Source: Escherichia phage APECc02
DNA: 64,000 nucleotides
Reading direction: 5' to 3' (one strand)
Sequence record: NC_041869.1
Below the pieces are notes generated by a model. The model saw nothing but the letters and a program-made list of their open reading frames with translations. It was not told where the DNA came from and did not search any database. Within the stretch, counting starts at the first letter, position 1, and every line of letters begins with the position of its first letter. Positions 5,860-23,141 of this stretch are shown piece after piece. The position numbers and the translations under genes are program-made.

Positions 5860-5934
5860 GCCCTGTTAGCTTAGTGGATAAAGCAGCGGCCTTCTAAGCC
5901 GTTGACACTGGTTCGAGTCCAGTACGGGGTGCCA
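5860..5934 (+). tRNA. tRNA-Arg (anticodon TCT)
   Basis: Manual cloverleaf fold: acceptor GCCCTGT/ACGGGGT, anticodon loop CTTCTAA, T-loop TTCGAGT, encoded CCA. Confidence 0.8.
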
Positions 5935-5938
5935 AATT

Positions 5939-6025
5939 GGGGAGTTATCCCGTAGAGGTAGCGGTGTAGACTGTAAATCTATTGTCATTGCGACTCGGGT
6001 GGTTCGACTCCACCACTCCCCACCA
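5939..6025 (+). tRNA. tRNA-Tyr (anticodon GTA), long variable arm
   Basis: Acceptor GGGGAGT/ACTCCCC, anticodon loop CTGTAAA, T-loop TTCGACT, encoded CCA. Confidence 0.8.
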
Positions 6026-6139
6026 AATTTACATTTTTAAATGCATAAATCATACAGATAATGGCATTGATATTTATCGTCGTTTATACTAGTCACTAAC
6101 TGCTCGAAAATCAGTGTCATTATCAGTATTGTTTATAAA

Positions 6140-6230
6140 TGAGGGTAGGGAGCAATGGTGCTCAAGCGGTCTTGAAAACCGTCCCGTTGAGGATGACTCG
6201 ATGATGGTTCGATTCCATTACCCTCAGCCA
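6140..6230 (+). tRNA. tRNA-Ser (anticodon TGA), long variable arm
   Basis: Acceptor TGAGGGT/ACCCTCA, anticodon loop CTTGAAA, T-loop TTCGATT, encoded CCA. Confidence 0.7.
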
Positions 6231-6328
6231 TATTGTTGACCTTGTAATTAAGCGAAAGCCGGAAGCAGAACCGGATTATCAAATGTTACAGTCGTCATCG
6301 CCGACTAGCAACATGGTCAACATACTGA

Positions 6329-6427
6329 GCTAGGTAAGCCCTTTGGCAAGGGCGAGGATTTTTAATCCTGAAAATAGACGAGGTAGTCGTTGAATACATA
6401 GGTGGTTCGATTCCATCACCTAGCACC
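6329..6427 (+). tRNA. atypical tRNA-like gene (possible tRNA-Lys TTT variant or pseudogene)
   Basis: Perfect acceptor GCTAGGT/ACCTAGC, D-arm GCCC-TTTGGCAA-GGGC, T-arm GGTGG-TTCGATT-CCATC, but anticodon arm is AGGA-TTTTTAA-TCCT (4-bp stem) or 5-bp stem with 5-nt loop, then about 30-nt extra arm; only CC encoded at 3' end. Confidence 0.35.
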
Positions 6428-6432
6428 TTTTT

Positions 6433-6508
6433 GCTGATGTAGCACAATTGGTAGTGCAATTGATTTGTAATCAATAGGTTGCAGGTTCGAGTCCTGCTAT
6501 CAGCACCA
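6433..6508 (+). tRNA. tRNA-Thr (anticodon TGT)
   Basis: Acceptor GCTGATG/TATCAGC, anticodon loop TTTGTAA, T-loop TTCGAGT, encoded CCA. Confidence 0.8.
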
Positions 6509-6509
6509 T

Positions 6510-6584
6510 GGCCCTGTAGCTGGAAGGTTCAAGCAAGCGACTCATAATCGCCAGACGGTGGTTCAATTCCACCCAGGGCCACCA
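6510..6584 (+). tRNA. tRNA-Met/Ile2 (anticodon CAT)
   Basis: Acceptor GGCCCTG/CAGGGCC, anticodon loop CTCATAA, T-loop TTCAATT, encoded CCA. Confidence 0.75.
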
Positions 6585-6595
6585 AATAATAAATA

Positions 6596-6672
6596 CTCCG
6601 CGTAGCTCAGCTTGGTAGAGCGCCTGATTTGGGATCAGGAGGTCGAGTGTTCGAATCACTCCGTGGAGACCA
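6596..6672 (+). tRNA. tRNA-Pro (anticodon TGG)
   Basis: Acceptor CTCCGCG/CGTGGAG, D-stem GCTC/GAGC, anticodon loop TTTGGGA, T-loop TTCGAAT, encoded CCA. Confidence 0.75.
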
Positions 6673-16944: not shown

Positions 16945-17370
16945 GTGGCAGCAGGTTATAAGCTGATAGGAAAGAACAGACTAATACCTCGTAAAACATT
17001 CAAAGGTCGCCACAGAGTGTATAACAAAACAGTTGGTGGCCCTTTTGCCAACGAGGGGTTAGAACTTGAGTATGAAGAGTTCGATGTCTTAGAGTGCGTT
17101 GTGCAGCCGTTGACAGGAAGGGCAGCTAAAGATTACTCCTCTCAAATAAACCCTGAAGGTGACAGACAGTACGAGGCTTTTACAGTTTACTCCTCAACCA
17201 AGTTGTATAGTCCGGATGAAGGAACATATGCAATGGCTGACCAAATTCAGCTGCCCGACATCCGTGGTGACTTGAAATGGTTTACTGTTTTAAAATGCGA
17301 TGCATATGTTACCTCTGGTGGTGGGAGATATAGATTTTTTGTGGTAGAAGAGCCTGAAGGAGAAAACTGA
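16945..17370 (+). CDS. hypothetical head-tail joining protein
   Basis: GTG start, 141 aa. Confidence 0.4.
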   Translation: MAAGYKLIGKNRLIPRKTFKGRHRVYNKTVGGPFANEGLELEYEEFDVLECVVQPLTGRAAKDYSSQINPEGDRQYEAFTVYSSTKLYSPDEGTYAMADQIQLPDIRGDLKWFTVLKCDAYVTSGGGRYRFFVVEEPEGEN

Positions 17371-17921
17371 TGGAAGCTTTCGAAAAAGTTTTTTCTGATC
17401 TTGAAACAACCATTGCTAAGCTCGTCAAGGTTGCCACAGGAAGAACTGTAGTTCTGGCAGAAAGCTTTACCATACCTAAGCCGGAAGGTGAGTTTGTACT
17501 TTTACAAACCTTGGCGATCAATCCAACCACTTGGGAAGATAATGAGTTTCAAGACGCGGAGGGTAATGCCTACGTCACCCACAGTTACACTGTTACTTAT
17601 CTGTTAACAGCTTATCGTGGCAGGGCATATGCTGCACTTAGCAGAGTATTGCAAGCAATAAACCTTCCGATGTTTTATGACAAGTATTTCCCTCTGGGAT
17701 CGTGCTTTGCCTACTCTAACAATTCAACAATCTCACCTCAAAGAGTGCCGTTGAATAAGCAGACGTATGAAAATAGAGCCACTGTGATGCTGACATTTAA
17801 CGTAAGGTTTGTTGAAACAGACATTGGGGCTTTTGAGGATCTTCAGGGAATTAAGGCTGAAATAACCACACACTTCCCTTCACCCAATTCTGGTAAAGCG
17901 GTTACAGACAGTGGTCAGTAA
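17370..17921 (+). CDS. hypothetical tail completion/terminator protein
   Basis: 183 aa, overlapping start/stop with upstream gene. Confidence 0.4.
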   Translation: MEAFEKVFSDLETTIAKLVKVATGRTVVLAESFTIPKPEGEFVLLQTLAINPTTWEDNEFQDAEGNAYVTHSYTVTYLLTAYRGRAYAALSRVLQAINLPMFYDKYFPLGSCFAYSNNSTISPQRVPLNKQTYENRATVMLTFNVRFVETDIGAFEDLQGIKAEITTHFPSPNSGKAVTDSGQ

Positions 17922-17993: not shown

Positions 17994-19370
17994 ATGCCAT
18001 ATTTAGATAAAGTGGTAGATGTTACAGTTAACCTCGGAACCCAGCCTATTGACACTGTAGGTTTCGAAACTCCCCTGTTCATCGCTATCCACAACAACTT
18101 TACTGAGCGAGCTCGCGTATACGCTGAGCTGGATCAGATGGTGGAAGATGGTTTCGCACAAGGCTCTGCAGCGTATGAGTTTGCAGCAAAAGCTTTTGGT
18201 GGTGTATTCCCTCCACAATACGTTATGATCGGCAGACAGGCCAAAGAAAAGACCACTGTAGATTTTAAAGGTATTGCTGCCGCAGCTGATACCGATGTCG
18301 TAATGACTATTGCAAAAGGTAGCTACAATACTTCTTTGATAGTGCCTATCTCTGGTGGAACAGGTGCAACTCAGATTGCAGAGTCAATGAAGACTAAAAT
18401 TGAAGCAGATGATAGCTTGAACGATATCACTGTAGAGGCTGCTGAAGGTGTTCTCACCATCACGGGTGATTGTACTGTTGGTTATCATACTGGCAACTAT
18501 ACAATCAAAAATATCGCCAATGCTGAAAAACCTTCTACAGTAGTTGATAAGATCAATGCTGAGCGTGACAATTGGTACTTCCTGTGCCATGAAGACCACA
18601 CCGACATTGAAGCATGTGCTAAGTGGGCTCAGGCTAACTACAAGCTGCATGTCTACTCTACTGCAGAAGATGTGACTGGTAAAGATAATAACATCGCCAC
18701 CAAACTGATGGCTGCACAATATGACAGTGTTGGCATGTACGATCCTCGTGCTGATAAAGATTTTCCAGAGGGTGGTATCGTAGGCGCTATGGCATCCAAC
18801 GATCCGTCTTACGGTGACAGCTTGCACTTAAAACAGATGCCGGGTGTGATTGCACCATCTCTGACTTTAACTCAGCGTATGGCGATTTGGGAAAACCACG
18901 TTAACTTCTACAGGATGATTAACGGTGTCGGTGCTTTCTGGGAAGGCAAGTGTGCTTCAGGTCAGTATGCAGACGCTATTCGTTTTGCACACTGGATCAA
19001 GTTCAGATCTGAAGAATCCATGTTTGGGTACATGCATCGTCGCTCCAATATGGGTTTAAGCATGAAGATGTCTGATGATGATCTTCCGGTTATCAAGTCT
19101 GTCCTGATGAACAACCCAATCAACACTGGCATTAAGAATGGTGCGATCCTGACAGGTTTCGACGAAGACAATAATGTATTCTACGACCCGATCATCACAG
19201 TTCCTAAACGTGCAGAAATCCCAACCAATCAGTTGGCTGCTCGTGTTCTGGAAGGTGTGAAAGTAGAACTGGTGTATAACAACGCCCTGCACTTCGTTCG
19301 TATCCGGATCAATGTCCTTCTGGACAAAGTTGGTTCTAAATCCACCAATGCTGTTGCAATGACTGAATAA
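17994..19370 (+). CDS. major tail protein (sheath-sized, 458 aa; sheath vs tube not resolved)
   Basis: Large ORF two genes upstream of the frameshifted tail chaperone; strong RBS. Confidence 0.45.
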   Translation: MPYLDKVVDVTVNLGTQPIDTVGFETPLFIAIHNNFTERARVYAELDQMVEDGFAQGSAAYEFAAKAFGGVFPPQYVMIGRQAKEKTTVDFKGIAAAADTDVVMTIAKGSYNTSLIVPISGGTGATQIAESMKTKIEADDSLNDITVEAAEGVLTITGDCTVGYHTGNYTIKNIANAEKPSTVVDKINAERDNWYFLCHEDHTDIEACAKWAQANYKLHVYSTAEDVTGKDNNIATKLMAAQYDSVGMYDPRADKDFPEGGIVGAMASNDPSYGDSLHLKQMPGVIAPSLTLTQRMAIWENHVNFYRMINGVGAFWEGKCASGQYADAIRFAHWIKFRSEESMFGYMHRRSNMGLSMKMSDDDLPVIKSVLMNNPINTGIKNGAILTGFDEDNNVFYDPIITVPKRAEIPTNQLAARVLEGVKVELVYNNALHFVRIRINVLLDKVGSKSTNAVAMTE

Positions 19371-19380
19371 GGAAGCCTAG

Positions 19381-19854
19381 ATGGAAACTCAAATTTTAAC
19401 TCCTTATGCGTATGACCCTAAAAAGGTCAAACTGTATCTGATGCAGCAGCGTGTCACTGGCTTCGCTGCTGACACCAAGATTGTTGTTTCAAGAAACGAA
19501 GACAACATTTACCCTCACGTCGGTGTGGATGGTGAAATGTCTGCGGCTCTGTCTCGTAACCAATCTGGTGTTATGACCGTGTCTTTGCAGAACACTTCTG
19601 TATGGAACGCTTACCTTTCTGACTGGCAGAAACAGGCATCGATTACTGGTCTGGTATTCTTCCCAGTTCTGCTGGAAGGTAGCCAGGGTCCTGGTATTTC
19701 CACAATTGGTTGGATCCAGAAACAGCCTGACCTGACTTACGGAACCGAAGTAGGTCAACTGGACTGGGATATCGGTATTCTGGATGCATGGCTCAACCGT
19801 GATAACATCACTGGTGCTCTTACTGGCCTCGCAGGTCTTGCAGGTATTATCTAA
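19381..19854 (+). CDS. tail tube-like protein (putative)
   Basis: 157 aa ORF immediately upstream of chaperone; followed by strong terminator. Confidence 0.4.
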   Translation: METQILTPYAYDPKKVKLYLMQQRVTGFAADTKIVVSRNEDNIYPHVGVDGEMSAALSRNQSGVMTVSLQNTSVWNAYLSDWQKQASITGLVFFPVLLEGSQGPGISTIGWIQKQPDLTYGTEVGQLDWDIGILDAWLNRDNITGALTGLAGLAGII

Positions 19855-19872
19855 GGGCACACTTTAGCATAA

Positions 19873-19900
19873 GCCTCACCTTCGGGTGGGGCTTTTTGCT
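19873..19900 (+). terminator. rho-independent terminator
   Basis: GCCTCACC-TTCG-GGTGGGGC then TTTTTGCTTTT. Confidence 0.7.
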
Positions 19901-19944
19901 TTTATGGTTTTGACACACGTTCTTGAATTGCTTGGAAGGTTAAA

Positions 19945-19973
19945 TTGACAATGCACCATAATCATGGTAAAAT
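19945..19973 (+). promoter_or_regulatory. promoter TTGACA-17-TAAAAT (TGGTAAAAT)
   Basis: -35 19945-19950, -10 19968-19973. Confidence 0.5.
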
Positions 19974-20016
19974 ACACAAATATGGTGCACAACATGACTA
20001 ATAAGGATGCTATAAA

Positions 20017-20490
20017 ATGGCTATAAACTTTAGACCTACAACAGAGATTGATTTAGCAGGGCACAACTTTGTGATCACCCACTGGGGACCGATGAAAGCA
20101 ATGAAAAACATGCCTAAAATCGGTAAGATTGTGGCTGTCCCGCTAGGTGCTATCGGTGGATCTATTATCTCAGGCGGTCAGAACATGGCAGAGGTCCTTC
20201 CTACAGCTCTGGCTTACCTGTTCCAAGAACTTGATGATAACTCTATCGAAGAGTTATTTAAAATTTTGTTCGAAGATATTACCGTAGATGGTGTGGATAA
20301 GCTTAACCCGGATGTTGTGTTTGCAGGGCATCTGCTGGAGATGATTAAGCTGGCAGGTAAGGTTCTGGAGGTTAACTACGGCTGTTTTTTCACACAAGAC
20401 GGTTTAGGAAGCCTTCTGGAGATGTTACAGCAGATGGGTATGATTCAGCAGGTGAACAACCTGGATCAGACTCCGGAAGAGCAGGAATAA
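20017..20490 (+). CDS. tail assembly chaperone (G-like)
   Basis: 157 aa ORF directly upstream of tape measure with slippery heptamer near 3' end. Confidence 0.7.
   Translation: MAINFRPTTEIDLAGHNFVITHWGPMKAMKNMPKIGKIVAVPLGAIGGSIISGGQNMAEVLPTALAYLFQELDDNSIEELFKILFEDITVDGVDKLNPDVVFAGHLLEMIKLAGKVLEVNYGCFFTQDGLGSLLEMLQQMGMIQQVNNLDQTPEEQE
20385..20391 (+). other. -1 programmed ribosomal frameshift slippery site T TTT TTC
   Basis: X XXY YYZ heptamer in chaperone frame; -1 frame is open from 20376 to 20750. Confidence 0.65.
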
Positions 20491-20750
20491 GCAAGGTTGT
20501 TGTGAGGGCCAGTGAGTGGGCAGCCAAGAACAGTTCACTCAACTGGTTCGACTTTCTTTGGTGTAGGGTGCTCAAGAATTTCAAAGGGGAAAATTTTGAA
20601 TCGCTAAATCTTGCAGATATGGCGTATTTCCTGAAGCTCTGTGAGTATCTTGATATCGAAGAATTCCTAGATACCGTCCAAAACAGGGAAATGGAGCGGG
20701 AGCAGAAGGCTGCCGCAGCTGCTGCGAAAGCTAAGCGCAGGAGAGGATAA
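20385..20750 (+). CDS. tail chaperone -1 frameshift extension (GT-like product with 20017..20390)
   Basis: -1 frame open across the 3' end of the chaperone gene and through ORF 20502..20750. Confidence 0.6.
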   Translation, partial: FFHTRRFRKPSGDVTADGYDSAGEQPGSDSGRAGISKVVVRASEWAAKNSSLNWFDFLWCRVLKNFKGENFESLNLADMAYFLKLCEYLDIEEFLDTVQNREMEREQKAAAAAAKAKRRRG

Positions 20751-20754
20751 TCTA

Positions 20755-20792
20755 AGGGCCGGATTCCTTTTCTGGGATCTGGCCCTTTTTAT
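20755..20792 (+). terminator. hairpin plus T-run
   Basis: GGGCC...GGCCC then TTTTTATT. Confidence 0.45.
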
Positions 20793-20804
20793 TATGAGGA
20801 AACC

Positions 20805-23141
20805 ATGGCTACAAACAAAATAGTTGCCACAACAGTCAACAAGATTGGCTTTGAGATAGAGAACTCCTCCTACAAAAAAGCTGTAGAGAAAATTCGCAGT
20901 ATTGGGAGGGAGTTCAGGAAACTGGGCGAGGATTTTAACTCAGCCAACCCCATGAGTAGATGGCAGGCGGTAGCTGTTAAAACCCAGCAGACAATGCAGC
21001 GGGTTGCCAGACAGCAATCTCAGGCAAATGCTAAACTGCACAGAGAGAGCGTAGCACAGGCCAAGAAAGAGGCTGCAGTAAGGGCTGCAATAGAACGTAG
21101 GGAGAATGCGAGACGTAAACAAGCTGTAGGTAATCTTACCGCTAAAAATCCAGAAATGGCTAGGATGCGTAAGTTCTACCAGCAGCAAGCTAAAGAGGCC
21201 AAAAAGGCTGCCAAATCTGCACCAGTGTCTTACGGTGGTTATAAGGCACCTAAGGCAAGAGTTTTGGCTAATGCCAAATCTTTCAAATATATCCCAGGTA
21301 ACCCTAATATGGGTGGTGTGGCTTCCGACCCTAACCTTGTGAAAGCTCAGACAGCCGCTATGAATCGTTATCATAGACAGCTAAGAAGAGACAGTAAAGC
21401 TGGTATGGATAATAGGCTTATGTCGGATCGTGAGGCAAGGAGAACCCACCTCTACAACTCCGCGATAAGACTTTCTGCCAAGTATGGGGCCGGATTCCGT
21501 GGAAGCTTGCCAGGATACTCAGAGTTAGAGTCCAGGTTTGCTCGCGGGGAGATGAAGAAGTCAACCTTTAACGCCCACCTGTCAGCGCTGCAGTCTGGGT
21601 TTAAAAGCGCCACCAGCCAAACGCTTACACTAGGCGATGCCATGAGAGACTTACGTAGATCTGTTATTAATGCAACAGCTGCGTATACAGCTTTTTCTGG
21701 ATTTGCTGCGGTTAACAGATCCGGTCACATGATGGAGGGGGCAAGTGCTGCTCTTACTGCTGTCACTGGAGATCCAAACAAAGCCAACAGTGAGGTTGCG
21801 TTTGTCCAGCAAGAGGCTATGCGTCTTGGTTTTGATCTCAAATCTGGTCTTCAAGGTTACGCCCAGATGTCGGTAAACGCCAAAAACCAGATGACAAATC
21901 AGGAAGTGCATGAGCTGTTTTCTGCATACTCCCAGTATGCTGCTGCTTATGGTGCCGATGAGGTAAAATACCAGCGCGGTATTATGGCTATCCAACAGAT
22001 GCTTGGCAAGGGACAAGTAATGTCCGAAGAACTGAAGCAACAACTTGCTGAAGCATTGCCTGGTGCATACGAACCTTTTATCAAGGCCACCAAAGAGGCT
22101 TTTGGTCTTTCTGAACTCTCCATGGATCAGTTCATGGACATGATGAAGAAAGGTGAGGTTAAAACAGCCAAGATCATGAAGTATGTGGCTAAGTACATGA
22201 ACGAGGCATCTGCAGCTGGTTATGAAAGAATGCAGAAGTCTAACGTGCTGGCAGAAAACAGACTGAAAACCTTCATCGAACTGACTCGTCAGAAACTGTT
22301 CACCCGTTGGTCTGACGAACTAACAGAGTTCTATTATACACTAATCCGCACTGGTGAGACTCTGCAATTTGTGTGGGATGCCTCTGGTGATTTTGTTAGC
22401 GGGTTTGTGAGAGGCCTTAACTGGGTAGTTGGTGAACTAAACAACACTATAGTCAAGATCCGCATGTTTTTCCTTGAATGGGGGATTAAATGGGGATTCA
22501 TAACAGCTAAGACGAAGGAATATTCTGAAGAGCTTCATGACACCTTTAGCTATGCTAAATGGGCAGGGTTTGCTGCTGCCATCATGCTGGTAGTCAACGC
22601 CCTAACAAAAGGTTTTGTCATGGCATCCATGCTTGTAAAAACCTTTAAATTCCTTAACTCTCTAAGGGGTGCAGCTGGAGCAGCGGGTGCCGCTACTACA
22701 GAAGGATCTGGTGGTGGAGCTCCGGCAGGAAAAGGTGGGGGTGGCCTCAAGACACCTGGTGGCAAAGTTGGTCTGCTCGGTAAGCTGGGCATTATCGGTA
22801 CAATACTAAGCGCCGGGGAATTATTTAATGACCGTTACAACCCACTAAGTGAAAGAAATCAGCAGCTAGATACTATCAGCGATATGATTCGCAAAGATAT
22901 CATATCGGGAGGTAACGGGTTTGTTAATCCTTTGGACACCTTACCTGGCGGGACTCTTCCGTTGCCGGGTGGCCCTGGTTTTGCTTCTCAATTAAGAACT
23001 ATGGAAATGCTACCTTTAGAGATCAGTGATGGGAAAATCACGATTTCAATAGATGAGGGTGAGTTTAACAAAATATTTGATGCAAAACTTGAGTGGGAGA
23101 ACAATAAAGATATCAACTTCATGTCTACCGACCTTTGGTAA
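20805..23141 (+). CDS. tail tape measure protein
   Basis: 778 aa, coiled-coil-rich, Gly-rich stretch GAAGAAGAATTEGSGGGAPAGKGGGG, follows chaperone/frameshift pair. Confidence 0.8.
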   Translation: MATNKIVATTVNKIGFEIENSSYKKAVEKIRSIGREFRKLGEDFNSANPMSRWQAVAVKTQQTMQRVARQQSQANAKLHRESVAQAKKEAAVRAAIERRENARRKQAVGNLTAKNPEMARMRKFYQQQAKEAKKAAKSAPVSYGGYKAPKARVLANAKSFKYIPGNPNMGGVASDPNLVKAQTAAMNRYHRQLRRDSKAGMDNRLMSDREARRTHLYNSAIRLSAKYGAGFRGSLPGYSELESRFARGEMKKSTFNAHLSALQSGFKSATSQTLTLGDAMRDLRRSVINATAAYTAFSGFAAVNRSGHMMEGASAALTAVTGDPNKANSEVAFVQQEAMRLGFDLKSGLQGYAQMSVNAKNQMTNQEVHELFSAYSQYAAAYGADEVKYQRGIMAIQQMLGKGQVMSEELKQQLAEALPGAYEPFIKATKEAFGLSELSMDQFMDMMKKGEVKTAKIMKYVAKYMNEASAAGYERMQKSNVLAENRLKTFIELTRQKLFTRWSDELTEFYYTLIRTGETLQFVWDASGDFVSGFVRGLNWVVGELNNTIVKIRMFFLEWGIKWGFITAKTKEYSEELHDTFSYAKWAGFAAAIMLVVNALTKGFVMASMLVKTFKFLNSLRGAAGAAGAATTEGSGGGAPAGKGGGGLKTPGGKVGLLGKLGIIGTILSAGELFNDRYNPLSERNQQLDTISDMIRKDIISGGNGFVNPLDTLPGGTLPLPGGPGFASQLRTMEMLPLEISDGKITISIDEGEFNKIFDAKLEWENNKDINFMSTDLW

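What the first reader, a model, noticed from the sequence alone, without database searches (positions are those of the whole stretch)
20385..20391. Canonical -1 frameshift site linking the tail chaperone to a downstream extension
Seen in sequence: T TTT TTC heptamer in the chaperone frame about 100 nt before its stop, with the -1 frame open to 20750. Established knowledge: this matches the conserved G/GT chaperone frameshift of long-tailed phages. It supports the tail-module call and predicts a fusion protein of about 245 aa.
Basis: partly seen in the sequence, partly recalled or inferred. Interest (0 to 1): 0.4.

Follow-up and report, generated by a model that had tools for sequence, protein, structure and literature searches.

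The report
Tail chaperone -1 frameshift site, rV5-like phage
This is the usual ribosome-slipping signal that lets a long-tailed phage make a short and a long tail-assembly chaperone from one gene; it is real and strongly conserved, but it is an ordinary example that public annotations of this phage group have missed.

Summary
T_TTT_TTC lies at 20385-20391 in the slippery register of the chaperone gene (TGT TTT TTC = Cys-Phe-Phe), 103 nt before its stop. The -1 frame opens 9 nt upstream and runs to 20750. The predicted fusion is 244 aa.

The window is an rV5-like myophage (Vequintavirus). Gene order is sheath, tube, chaperone (Pfam Phage_TAC_15), small ORF, tape measure.

One heptamer alone is weak evidence (about 0.1 expected by chance). 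The comparative evidence is strong:
- In 26 distinct sequence contexts, some with only about 30% protein identity, the three synonymous positions of the heptamer never change, while flanking ones do.
- The codon before the heptamer is TGT, CCT, AGT or TCT, so it always ends in T.
- A Rheinheimera phage has G_GGA_AAG three codons downstream instead.
- The -1 extension is as conserved as the chaperone core.
- In 20 of 36 distinct relatives no start codon precedes its conserved motif.
- Citrobacter phage Moogle has the same heptamer in the same motif, annotated as a frameshift join.

No conserved stimulatory RNA structure was found. None of about 75 rV5-like and related records seen annotates the join. 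I conclude it is a new member of a well-known kind, of low interest. The fusion protein itself has not been shown.

The parts
17994..19370 (+). Tail sheath gene (context)
   Evidence: phrog_205 tail sheath, E 7e-118; Pfam DUF3383
19381..19854 (+). Tail tube gene (context)
   Evidence: phrog_280, E 2e-41; Pfam KPP10_Orf10; named tail tube protein in several public records
19871..19904 (+). Terminator-like hairpin plus T-run after the tube gene
   Evidence: Pattern scan: 10-pair stem followed by TTTGCTTTTA. Consensus match only
19945..19973 (+). Sigma-70-like promoter TTGACA-17-TAAAAT with a TG, upstream of the chaperone gene
   Evidence: 11 of 12 consensus matches. Consensus match only
20002..20008 (+). 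Shine-Dalgarno-like TAAGGAT, 8 nt before the chaperone ATG
   Evidence: Read from the sequence
20017..20490 (+). Short chaperone form (TAC-N, the gpG analogue), 157 aa
   Evidence: Pfam PF21822 Phage_TAC_15, 83.6 bits against a cutoff of 22. phrog_3840 tail assembly chaperone, E 5e-69. The AF2 model matches phage chaperones in BFVD, including Moogle's tape measure chaperone
20367..20371 (+). Internal Shine-Dalgarno-like GGAGG, 13 nt upstream of the heptamer; a possible but unproven stimulator
   Evidence: Position. The bases fall in conserved Leu-Glu-Val codons. GAGG is kept in most relatives but not all, so it is not a conserved element
20373..20375 (+). Last stop codon (TAA) of the -1 frame; the -1 frame is open from 20376
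20385..20391 (+). Slippery heptamer T_TTT_TTC. The tRNA-Phe on UUU (P site) and the tRNA-Phe on UUC (A site) both re-pair one base back
   Evidence: Invariant in 26 of 26 distinct contexts from relatives, while neighbouring synonymous sites vary. Same heptamer at the annotated Moogle frameshift
20391..20490 (+). Dual-coding overlap. The 0 frame gives the 32-aa tail specific to the short form; the -1 frame gives HTRRFRKPSG plus a Gly/Ser/Asp-rich linker
   Evidence: Both frames are less conserved here than the flanking domains. The short-form tail has pLDDT below 50
20391..20750 (+). -1-frame extension (T part), 119 codons plus stop. The long form (TAC-NC) is join(20017..20391, 20391..20750), 244 aa
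   Evidence: phrog_10409 and phrog_8811. 38-77% identical to relatives, similar to the chaperone core. Predicted helical, low confidence
20502..20750 (+). The 82-aa GTG-started ORF as conventionally annotated ('hypothetical protein')
   Evidence: Its start codon is not conserved in relatives. The conserved ISKVV residues lie upstream of it
20754..20797 (+). Terminator-like hairpin plus T-run between the extension's stop and the tape-measure start
   Evidence: 14-pair stem followed by TTTATTATGA. An equivalent hairpin is seen in Klebsiella and Salmonella relatives
20805..23141 (+). Tape measure protein gene (context), 778 aa
   Evidence: phrog_5255, 1140 bits; Pfam TMP_3

Best explanation
The site is a programmed -1 ribosomal frameshift site in the tail assembly chaperone gene of an rV5-like myophage.

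Proposed mechanism:
1. Most ribosomes translate 20017-20490 and release the 157-aa short chaperone.
2. A minority slip when tRNA-Phe occupies UUU (P site, 20386-88) and UUC (A site, 20389-91).
3. Both tRNAs re-pair one base back, on UUU and UUU. Decoding resumes at CAC (20391-93) in the -1 frame.
4. The product is a 244-aa long form. It shares residues 1-125 with the short form and continues ...CFF-HTRRFRKPSG-linker-helical domain, ending at 20750.

By analogy with lambda gpG/gpGT, the shared N part is expected to coat the tape measure protein. The C-terminal T part is expected to recruit the tube protein. A fixed low slip rate would set the ratio of the two forms.

Shown here: the sequence anatomy, the family membership of the N part, and strong evolutionary conservation of the heptamer, its register and the start-less -1 ORF.

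Inferred: that slippage happens, its efficiency, and what the two domains bind.
For: - Anatomy: the heptamer is in register, and the -1 frame opens 9 nt upstream after 20 upstream stops, then stays open for 124 codons.
- Gene context: sheath, tube, chaperone, small ORF, tape measure.
- Conservation of the heptamer: in 26 distinct 51-nt contexts (Vequintavirus, a gut clade, Seunavirus, Henunavirus, Certrevirus, W70, phi92-like and Plateaulakevirus) the codons are always NNT TTT TTC.
  - The preceding codon is TGT in 15, CCT in 9, AGT in 1 and TCT in 1.
  - Flanking third positions vary.
- Replacement: Rheinheimera Barbavirus has lost FF but carries G_GGA_AAG in register three codons downstream, with an open -1 ORF.
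- Every relative has a -1 ORF of 107-149 codons.
- The T part is 38-77% identical to relatives, against 43-74% for the chaperone core.
- In 20 of 36 distinct extensions no ATG, GTG or TTG precedes the conserved K-N-S-S-L-x-W motif.
- Gene callers start the ORF at scattered positions, giving 43-102 aa, or omit it.
- Moogle has T_TTT_TTC in the same ...N-F-G-S-F-F motif and a joined CDS. Its genome paper states a translational frameshift (PMC4319497).
- The motif fits the E. coli rules: UUY A-site codons and all-pyrimidine heptamers are slippage-prone (PMC4066793).
- The folded core in the AF2 model ends at about residue 124, which is the shift point.
Against: - There is no direct evidence of the fusion protein.
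- No conserved downstream hairpin or pseudoknot was found and there is no Rfam match.
- In E. coli, heptamers without stimulators gave only 2-10 times a background of about 0.05% (PMC4066793). Efficiency may therefore be low.
- In Vequintavirus itself a GTG at 20502 with a weak AAGG or AGGT upstream could allow some independent initiation.
- The relatives are phylogenetically related, so the 26 contexts are not 26 independent trials.
- The IMG/VR loci were retrieved with a peptide pattern that contains FF. This biases the amino acids, though not the codon choice.
Confidence: 0.85

Rival explanations
1. The downstream ORF is an independent gene. It is translated from its own GTG at 20502 as an 82-aa protein, as most public records annotate it, and the heptamer is incidental.
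For: - A GTG at 20502 is preceded by a weak AAGG/AGGT.
- Public records call it a separate hypothetical protein, and phrog_10409 is built from such 82-aa calls.
- Only short ORF products are found in protein databases.
Against: - The start is not conserved. In 20 of 36 distinct relatives no start codon exists before the conserved KNSSLxW motif.
- Conserved residues (ISKVV, and RRFR right after the heptamer) lie upstream of the GTG.
- Called ORFs begin at query positions 34-79.
- The heptamer's synonymous sites are invariant.
- Some low-level internal initiation in Vequintavirus alongside the frameshift is not excluded.
Confidence: 0.08
2. The frame change is made by RNA polymerase. Slippage on the T6 tract adds one U to a fraction of transcripts, and normal translation of those transcripts gives the same 244-aa protein.
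For: - The site is a homopolymer run.
- The protein product would be identical (C-F-F-H-T-R-R), so nothing in the protein sequence separates the two routes.
- Transcriptional slippage is used in some bacterial and phage genes (PMC5009743).
Against: - The run is only 6 T in all 26 contexts and in Moogle. From my own recollection, not checked in the papers read here, known bacterial slippage tracts are longer, about 8-9 or more.
- The second Phe codon is always TTC and never TTT, so the run is never lengthened. This is partly explained by the -1-frame codon needing to start with C.
- The Rheinheimera relative uses G_GGA_AAG, a classical ribosomal heptamer that is not a homopolymer.
Confidence: 0.05
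3. Chance. The heptamer and the open -1 frame are coincidental by-products of a conserved Phe-Phe motif and have no decoding role.
For: - About 0.09-0.1 in-register heptamers are expected in a 36-codon overlap.
- Six other in-register heptamers occur in neighbouring tail genes with no sign of function.
Against: - Codon choice is invariant at three synonymous positions across four different preceding codons.
- A different slippery heptamer replaces it in Rheinheimera.
- The -1 frame is open in every relative, for 107-149 codons, and starts just before the heptamer.
- The extension is conserved at protein level, as much as the chaperone core.
Confidence: 0.02

Closest known systems
Phage lambda gpG/gpGT programmed -1 frameshift (Levin 1993; Xu, Hendrix and Duda 2004, 2013, 2014; summarised in PMC5009743)
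   Same: - A two-ORF chaperone locus directly upstream of the tape-measure gene.
[quoted passage not shown]
- A -1 extension without its own conserved start.
- No required downstream stimulatory structure was found here. From my recollection, lambda's site also lacks one.
   Different: - The heptamer is U_UUU_UUC, not G_GGA_AAG.
- The phage has a contractile tail.
- The shift is 103 nt before the stop, so the short form keeps a private 32-aa tail.
- There is no detectable sequence similarity to lambda G or T: Pfam gives Phage_TAC_15 for the N part and nothing for the T part.
Citrobacter phage Moogle tape measure chaperone (KM236239, joined CDS; PMC4319497), and the 'GTTTTT' chaperone frameshift reported for Andersonviridae and Vandenendeviridae (PMC12846349)
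   Same: - The same T_TTT_TTC heptamer in the same register.
- The same local motif: L-E-A-N-F-G-S-F-F in Moogle against L-E-V-N-Y-G-C-F-F here.
- The N part is structurally similar (Foldseek E 1e-4).
- The gene order is the same.
- These families are described as relatives of Vequintavirinae.
   Different: - Protein similarity to the window is too low for tblastn at E 0.001.
- The Moogle shift is 49 nt before the stop, against 103 nt here.
- The papers read here do not state the frameshift for Vequintavirinae.
- None of the rV5-like records inspected annotates it.
Phage P2 E / E+E' and other myophage chaperone frameshifts (recalled from my own knowledge: Christie 2002; Xu 2004)
   Same: A contractile-tailed phage with a T-rich slippery run. 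As I recall, P2 uses T_TTT_TTG. A -1 shift makes the longer chaperone.
   Different: No sequence family in common was detected here. The P2 details are recalled, not checked with the tools.
T4-like phages: separate genes for the short and the long chaperone (Vladimirov, Gautam and Davidson 2022, as described in PMC10885494)
   Same: The same two-isoform logic (TAC-N and TAC-NC).
   Different: Those phages encode the long form as an in-frame fusion gene. No such in-frame N+T fusion was found for this family in 5.8 billion proteins or 1.8 billion representatives.

Membership tests
G/GT-type tail assembly chaperone with programmed -1 frameshift | The locus lies between the major tail/tube gene and the tape-measure gene | tested here: met
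   Order is sheath 17994-19370, tube 19381-19854, chaperone 20017-20490, ORF to 20750, tape measure 20805-23141
G/GT-type tail assembly chaperone with programmed -1 frameshift | The first ORF belongs to a tail assembly chaperone family | tested here: met
   PF21822 Phage_TAC_15, 83.6 bits against a cutoff of 22. phrog_3840, E 5e-69. BFVD structural matches to annotated chaperones
G/GT-type tail assembly chaperone with programmed -1 frameshift | A slippery X_XXY_YYZ heptamer in the 0-frame register, inside the zone where the alternative frame is open | tested here: met
   T_TTT_TTC at 20385-20391. It is the only one in the 115-nt overlap
G/GT-type tail assembly chaperone with programmed -1 frameshift | The second ORF is in the -1 frame, has no conserved start of its own, and is conserved as protein | tested here: met
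   No start codon before the conserved motif in 20 of 36 distinct relatives. T part 38-77% identical to relatives
G/GT-type tail assembly chaperone with programmed -1 frameshift | The slip site and the two-frame arrangement are conserved among divergent relatives | tested here: met
   26 of 26 contexts invariant at synonymous sites. A compensating G_GGA_AAG in Rheinheimera. Moogle has the same heptamer
G/GT-type tail assembly chaperone with programmed -1 frameshift | The fusion protein is made at a low fixed ratio, is required for tail assembly, and is absent from virions | not testable with these tools
   Needs proteomics and genetics. The rV5 proteomics paper does not mention a chaperone or a frameshift
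G/GT-type tail assembly chaperone with programmed -1 frameshift | The N part binds the tape measure protein and the T part binds the tail tube protein | not testable with these tools
   Inference from lambda (PMC5009743). The T-part model is too poor (pLDDT 51) for structural comparison
Stimulated -1 frameshift of the dnaX / IS911 type | A downstream hairpin or pseudoknot 5-9 nt after the heptamer | tested here: not met
   Z-scores of the 59-nt 3' flanks run from +2.0 to -2.0. Only Aeromonas has a well-placed hairpin. RNAalifold on 13 relatives predicts 0 pairs. No Rfam hit
Stimulated -1 frameshift of the dnaX / IS911 type | An upstream Shine-Dalgarno-like element about 10-14 nt 5' of the heptamer | tested here: inconclusive
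   GGAGG at 20367-71, with a 13-nt spacer. It falls in conserved Leu-Glu-Val codons. GAG is used in 19 of 23 Glu codons there, against about 50% in the window's tail genes. It is absent in several lineages
Programmed transcriptional slippage | A long homopolymeric A or T tract (about 8-9 or more, as I recall from the literature) | tested here: not met
   The run is exactly 6 T in all contexts and is never lengthened. The Rheinheimera variant is not a homopolymer

The most novel reading that the evidence does not exclude
The two products may be alternative-C-terminus isoforms rather than 'short' and 'extended' forms of one protein.
- The shift falls exactly where the predicted folded chaperone core ends, about residue 125.
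- The short form therefore carries a private 32-aa tail with a conserved pattern (G-F/L..L..L...G-M/L...V..LDQ).
- The long form swaps that tail for a linker plus a helical T domain.
- The 100-nt overlap is constrained in both frames.

If the tail has its own role, such as tape-measure binding or oligomerisation that must be absent from the long form, this would be a functional twist on the lambda model. A further unproven layer is that the two terminators bracketing the chaperone gene, together with the slip rate, jointly set the chaperone to tape-measure stoichiometry.
Probability: 0.2. Interest if true: 0.35.

Novelty: new member of a known kind. Interest (0 to 1): 0.2.

Why it matters
The main value is for annotation.
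- In the rV5-like (Vequintavirus) records inspected, and in the Seunavirus, Henunavirus, Certrevirus, phi92-like and Plateaulakevirus records, the long chaperone isoform is missing.
- The downstream ORF is listed as a hypothetical protein with an arbitrary start, split in two, or omitted.
- PHROG families 10409 and 8811 ('unknown function') can be relabelled as the C-terminal part of the frameshifted chaperone.

It also shows that one particular slip site, T_TTT_TTC in an N-Y/F-G-x-F-F motif, has been kept across phage lineages that share only about 30% identity or less. That adds a data point on how stable recoding signals are. It does not open a new question.

Tried and rejected
- **Downstream stimulatory RNA structure.** Single-sequence folds of the 3' flank in the window and five relatives gave no consistent stability. 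RNAalifold on 13 relatives gave zero pairs. A long-range helix in the window (about 20411-20421 with 20470-20481) has z of only -1.25 and is not conserved, so I rejected it.
- **Rfam** scan of 19800-20900: nothing at E up to 1.
- **In-frame N+T fusion proteins.** I looked for these as independent proof that the two parts belong to one polypeptide. None turned up among 73 hits in the 5.8-billion-protein set, nor in the 1.8-billion representative set.
  - The few long hits there are DUF285/LRR repeat proteins. I treat these as pattern similarity.
- **Sequence search of PDB** with profiles of the N and T parts: nothing significant.
- **NCBIfam:** nothing.
- **AF2 of the T part** with only 4 sequences: pLDDT 51, so no fold search was attempted.
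- **Foldseek of the N-part model against PDB:** only a marginal hit to 5ir0.
- **Upstream GGAGG as a conserved stimulator:** not conserved, left as a possibility.
- **+1 frame:** closed within 5 codons of the heptamer.
- **Vladimirov 2022 paper:** could not be read.

Full report
**1. The observation**

Window 20385-20391 reads TTTTTTC. The surrounding ORF runs from 20017 to 20490 (157 aa). In its frame the bases are TGT TTT TTC (Cys123-Phe124-Phe125). The run is therefore in the X_XXY_YYZ register needed for simultaneous -1 slippage of two tRNAs.

- The heptamer begins 103 nt before the TAA at 20488.
- The -1 frame carries 20 stop codons between 19803 and 20375, the last being TAA at 20373-75. 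It is then open for 124 codons to the TAA at 20748-50.
- That frame is the frame of the ORF 20502-20750.
- The +1 frame closes at 20405.
- Slippage followed by decoding of CAC (20391-93) gives a 244-aa product...NYGCFF-HTRRFRKPSG....

**2. Is it more than chance?**

On this sequence alone, hardly. In ten tail-module ORFs of the window there are 7 in-register canonical heptamers in 2842 codon positions. About 0.09 is therefore expected in the 36-codon overlap. The evidence that matters is comparative.

**3. What the locus is**

The window is an rV5-like myophage. It is 99% identical over this region to Escherichia phages EdH4, FFH2, FV3, V5 and more than 100 others of genus Vequintavirus.

| Gene | Coordinates | Evidence |
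|---|---|---|
| Tail terminator-like | 17370-17921 | Pfam Phage_tail_terminator_9 |
| Sheath | 17994-19370 | phrog_205 |
| Tube | 19381-19854 | phrog_280 |
| Chaperone | 20017-20490 | Pfam PF21822 Phage_TAC_15, 83.6 bits, cutoff 22; phrog_3840, E 5e-69 |
| Small ORF | to 20750 | phrog_10409, 'unknown function' |
| Tape measure | 20805-23141 | phrog_5255; Pfam TMP_3 |

An AF2 model of the short chaperone (mean pLDDT 66) matches annotated phage tail assembly chaperones in BFVD. Among them is 'Tape measure chaperone [Citrobacter phage Moogle]' at E 1e-4.

**4. Comparative evidence**

I collected the homologous locus from three sources:
- 14 annotated phages (L001-L014);
- 36 IMG/VR contigs (L015-L050);
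- a gut-metagenome clade (L051 and L052).

They span Vequintavirus, Seunavirus, Henunavirus, Certrevirus, phage W70, phi92-like Stephanstirmvirinae and Aeromonas Plateaulakevirus. Chaperone identity falls as low as 28-32%.

(a) *The heptamer is invariant.* All 26 distinct 51-nt contexts have NNT TTT TTC.
- The codon before the Phe pair is TGT (15), CCT (9), AGT (1) or TCT (1). These encode three different amino acids, always with T in third position.
- The Phe codons are TTT then TTC in 26 of 26.
- Flanking third positions vary freely: Tyr TAC 19 / TAT 7; Gly GGC 20 / GGA 3 / GGT 1; the preceding Val/Ile codon (GTN or ATY) ends in all four bases.
- In the window's own tail genes, TTT:TTC is 75:47 and TGT:TGC is 7:9. 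This codon choice is therefore not the default.

(b) *Every relative has the -1 frame open* from just before the heptamer for 107-149 codons.

(c) *A compensating replacement exists.* Rheinheimera phage Barba19A has lost the Phe-Phe (it reads ...HYGCLTSGKSF...). It carries G_GGA_AAG, the lambda heptamer, in register three codons downstream, with the -1 ORF intact. A slip site replaced by a different slip site is hard to explain unless slippage is the selected function.

(d) *The -1 extension is a conserved protein.* Its C-terminal domain is 38-77% identical to relatives, against 43-74% for the last 40 residues of the chaperone core. The overlap itself is less conserved in both frames.

(e) *The extension has no start codon of its own.*
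- In 20 of 36 distinct sequences no ATG, GTG or TTG lies in frame between the heptamer and the conserved K-N-S-S-L-x-W motif.
- Conserved residues (RRFR just after the heptamer, ISKVV across the 0-frame stop) lie upstream of the window's GTG at 20502.
- Gene callers accordingly start the ORF wherever a start codon happens to be. Annotated products are 43-82 aa. The ORF is absent in EF1-1, phi1_175008, V18 and 241Ecol014PP, and split in two in MiataMamis, although the frame is intact there.
- In a search of 1.8 billion representative proteins, the hits are 43-102-aa ORFs. Their first residues align to query positions 34-79.

(f) *No in-frame fusion exists.* All 73 hits to the 244-aa fusion are 149-159-aa short forms.

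**5. Link to known cases**

Citrobacter phage Moogle (Felix O1-like; Mooglevirus) annotates two 'tape measure chaperone' CDSs. [quoted passage not shown]
- Its short form ends ...LEANFGSFFEAS... with AGT TTT TTC.
- That is the same heptamer, the same register and the same motif as the window's ...LEVNYGCFFTQD....

- It covers Vandenendeviridae (56 alleles) and Andersonviridae (231 genomes).
- It describes these families as relatives of Vequintavirinae and Stephanstirmvirinae.
- It does not make the claim for those two groups.

The original rV5 paper mentions neither a chaperone nor a frameshift. None of the roughly 75 rV5-like and related records whose features I saw annotates a join, including Murica.

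The site is thus an orthologue of an already recognised frameshift, un-annotated in this clade.

**6. Mechanism**

The best reading is tandem -1 slippage of two tRNA-Phe on U_UUU_UUC.
- The motif fits the E. coli rules measured by Sharma et al. UUN and AAN A-site codons are the most shift-prone. All-pyrimidine ZZN codons are better than mixed ones. Motifs are better when X and Z are both pyrimidines (PMC4066793).
- I found no conserved stimulator. The 3' flanks fold no better than shuffles in most lineages (z from +2.0 to -2.0). Only the Aeromonas phages have a well-placed hairpin, 6 nt downstream, at -16.8 kcal/mol.
- RNAalifold on 13 relatives predicts no pairs, and Rfam finds nothing.
- In the window, a GGAGG lies 13 nt upstream (20367-71). 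That is the spacing at which internal Shine-Dalgarno sequences stimulate -1 shifts in dnaX and IS911 (my recollection of the literature).
- It falls in conserved Leu-Glu-Val codons. GAG is used in 19 of 23 Glu codons there, against about 50% in the window's tail genes. Several lineages lack it. I list it as possible, not established.
- Heptamers without stimulators gave only 2-10 times a background of about 0.05% in E. coli reporters. The long form may therefore be rare, which is compatible with the low gpGT:gpG ratio (about 1:30) needed in lambda (PMC5009743).

The roles of the two parts (N binds the tape measure, T recruits the tube protein) are inferred from lambda. They were not tested.

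**7. Rivals**

- *Independent initiation at 20502.* This cannot be the conserved route, for the reasons under point (e) of section 4. It could add a little product in Vequintavirus.
- *Transcriptional slippage.* It would give the identical protein, so mass spectrometry cannot separate it from ribosomal slippage. It is disfavoured because the tract is only 6 T, is never lengthened (the second Phe codon is always TTC), and is replaced by a non-homopolymeric heptamer in Rheinheimera.
- *Chance.* Excluded for practical purposes by the conservation pattern.

**8. Extra anatomy**

The shift point coincides with the end of the predicted folded core. The last confident helix is 106-124, and residues 127-157 have pLDDT below 50. 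The short form therefore has a private 32-aa tail with a recognisable conserved pattern, and the long form replaces it with a Gly/Ser/Asp-rich linker and a helical domain.

The chaperone gene is bracketed as follows:
- a terminator-like hairpin (19871-19894) and a near-consensus promoter (19945-19973) upstream;
- a second terminator-like hairpin (20754-20787) downstream, only 17 nt before the tape-measure ATG.

The downstream hairpin is also present in Klebsiella and Salmonella relatives. These are consensus matches only.

**9. Verdict**

This is a textbook kind of recoding site, orthologous to a published and annotated one in sister lineages, but missing from the annotations of rV5-like phages and several related genera. 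Novelty: new member of a known kind. Interest: low (0.2). The fusion protein and the slip efficiency remain to be shown experimentally.

Noticed in passing
window 6329-6427 (+), within the tRNA cluster 5860-6672: A 99-nt tRNA-like gene. ARAGORN cannot assign it and reports a 4-base anticodon 'atcc'. Rfam tRNA scores 35.5 bits, just above the threshold of 29. The anticodon arm reads AGGA-TTTTTAA-TCCT, and there is a long extra arm. It could be a degenerate or unusual tRNA.
   Followed up: partly
window 20754-20797 (+): A strong terminator-like hairpin (14 pairs plus a T-run) sits between the end of the chaperone extension and the tape-measure start codon, which is 17 nt further on, with no promoter between. 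Tape-measure expression would then depend on read-through. An equivalent hairpin is present in Klebsiella and Salmonella relatives.
   Followed up: partly
window 19871-19973 (+): A terminator-like hairpin after the tube gene is followed by a near-consensus sigma-70 promoter (TTGACA-17-TAAAAT with TG). The chaperone gene therefore looks like its own transcription unit.
   Followed up: no
Public records MG0656xx ('Campylobacter phage' C9, D1, C2, A13b and others): About 18-23 GenBank records named Campylobacter phages are 99% identical to E. coli rV5-like phages over this locus and carry no annotation. They look mislabelled or contaminated.
   Followed up: no
L051 1-1397 and L052 1-1444; L012 2120-2758: Mobile-looking genes are inserted next to the chaperone locus in relatives. 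A DUF723 protein sits directly upstream of the chaperone gene in a gut-metagenome rV5-like clade. An HNH endonuclease sits between the extension ORF and the tape-measure gene in Rheinheimera phage Barba19A.
   Followed up: no
window 20526-20654 (extension residues 46-88): This stretch gives weak multi-copy matches (E 1e-6 to 1e-3) to DUF285 / BspA-type leucine-rich-repeat proteins of 737-1311 aa. This is probably pattern similarity, not homology.
   Followed up: partly
window 20017-20490 (AF2 model of the short chaperone): The best solved-structure match is 5ir0, ORF19 of the Vibrio cholerae PICI-like element (Foldseek probability 0.96, E 0.19, target TM 0.60). It is a hint that this satellite protein may have a chaperone-like fold.
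   Followed up: no
L003 (PQ002171.1, Salmonella phage vB_Sen_SG_WM_SEW_6S): The record's taxonomy line says Demerecviridae. Its tail module, however, is a Seunavirus-like relative of the window: sheath, tube, chaperone and tape measure, with the same heptamer.
   Followed up: no
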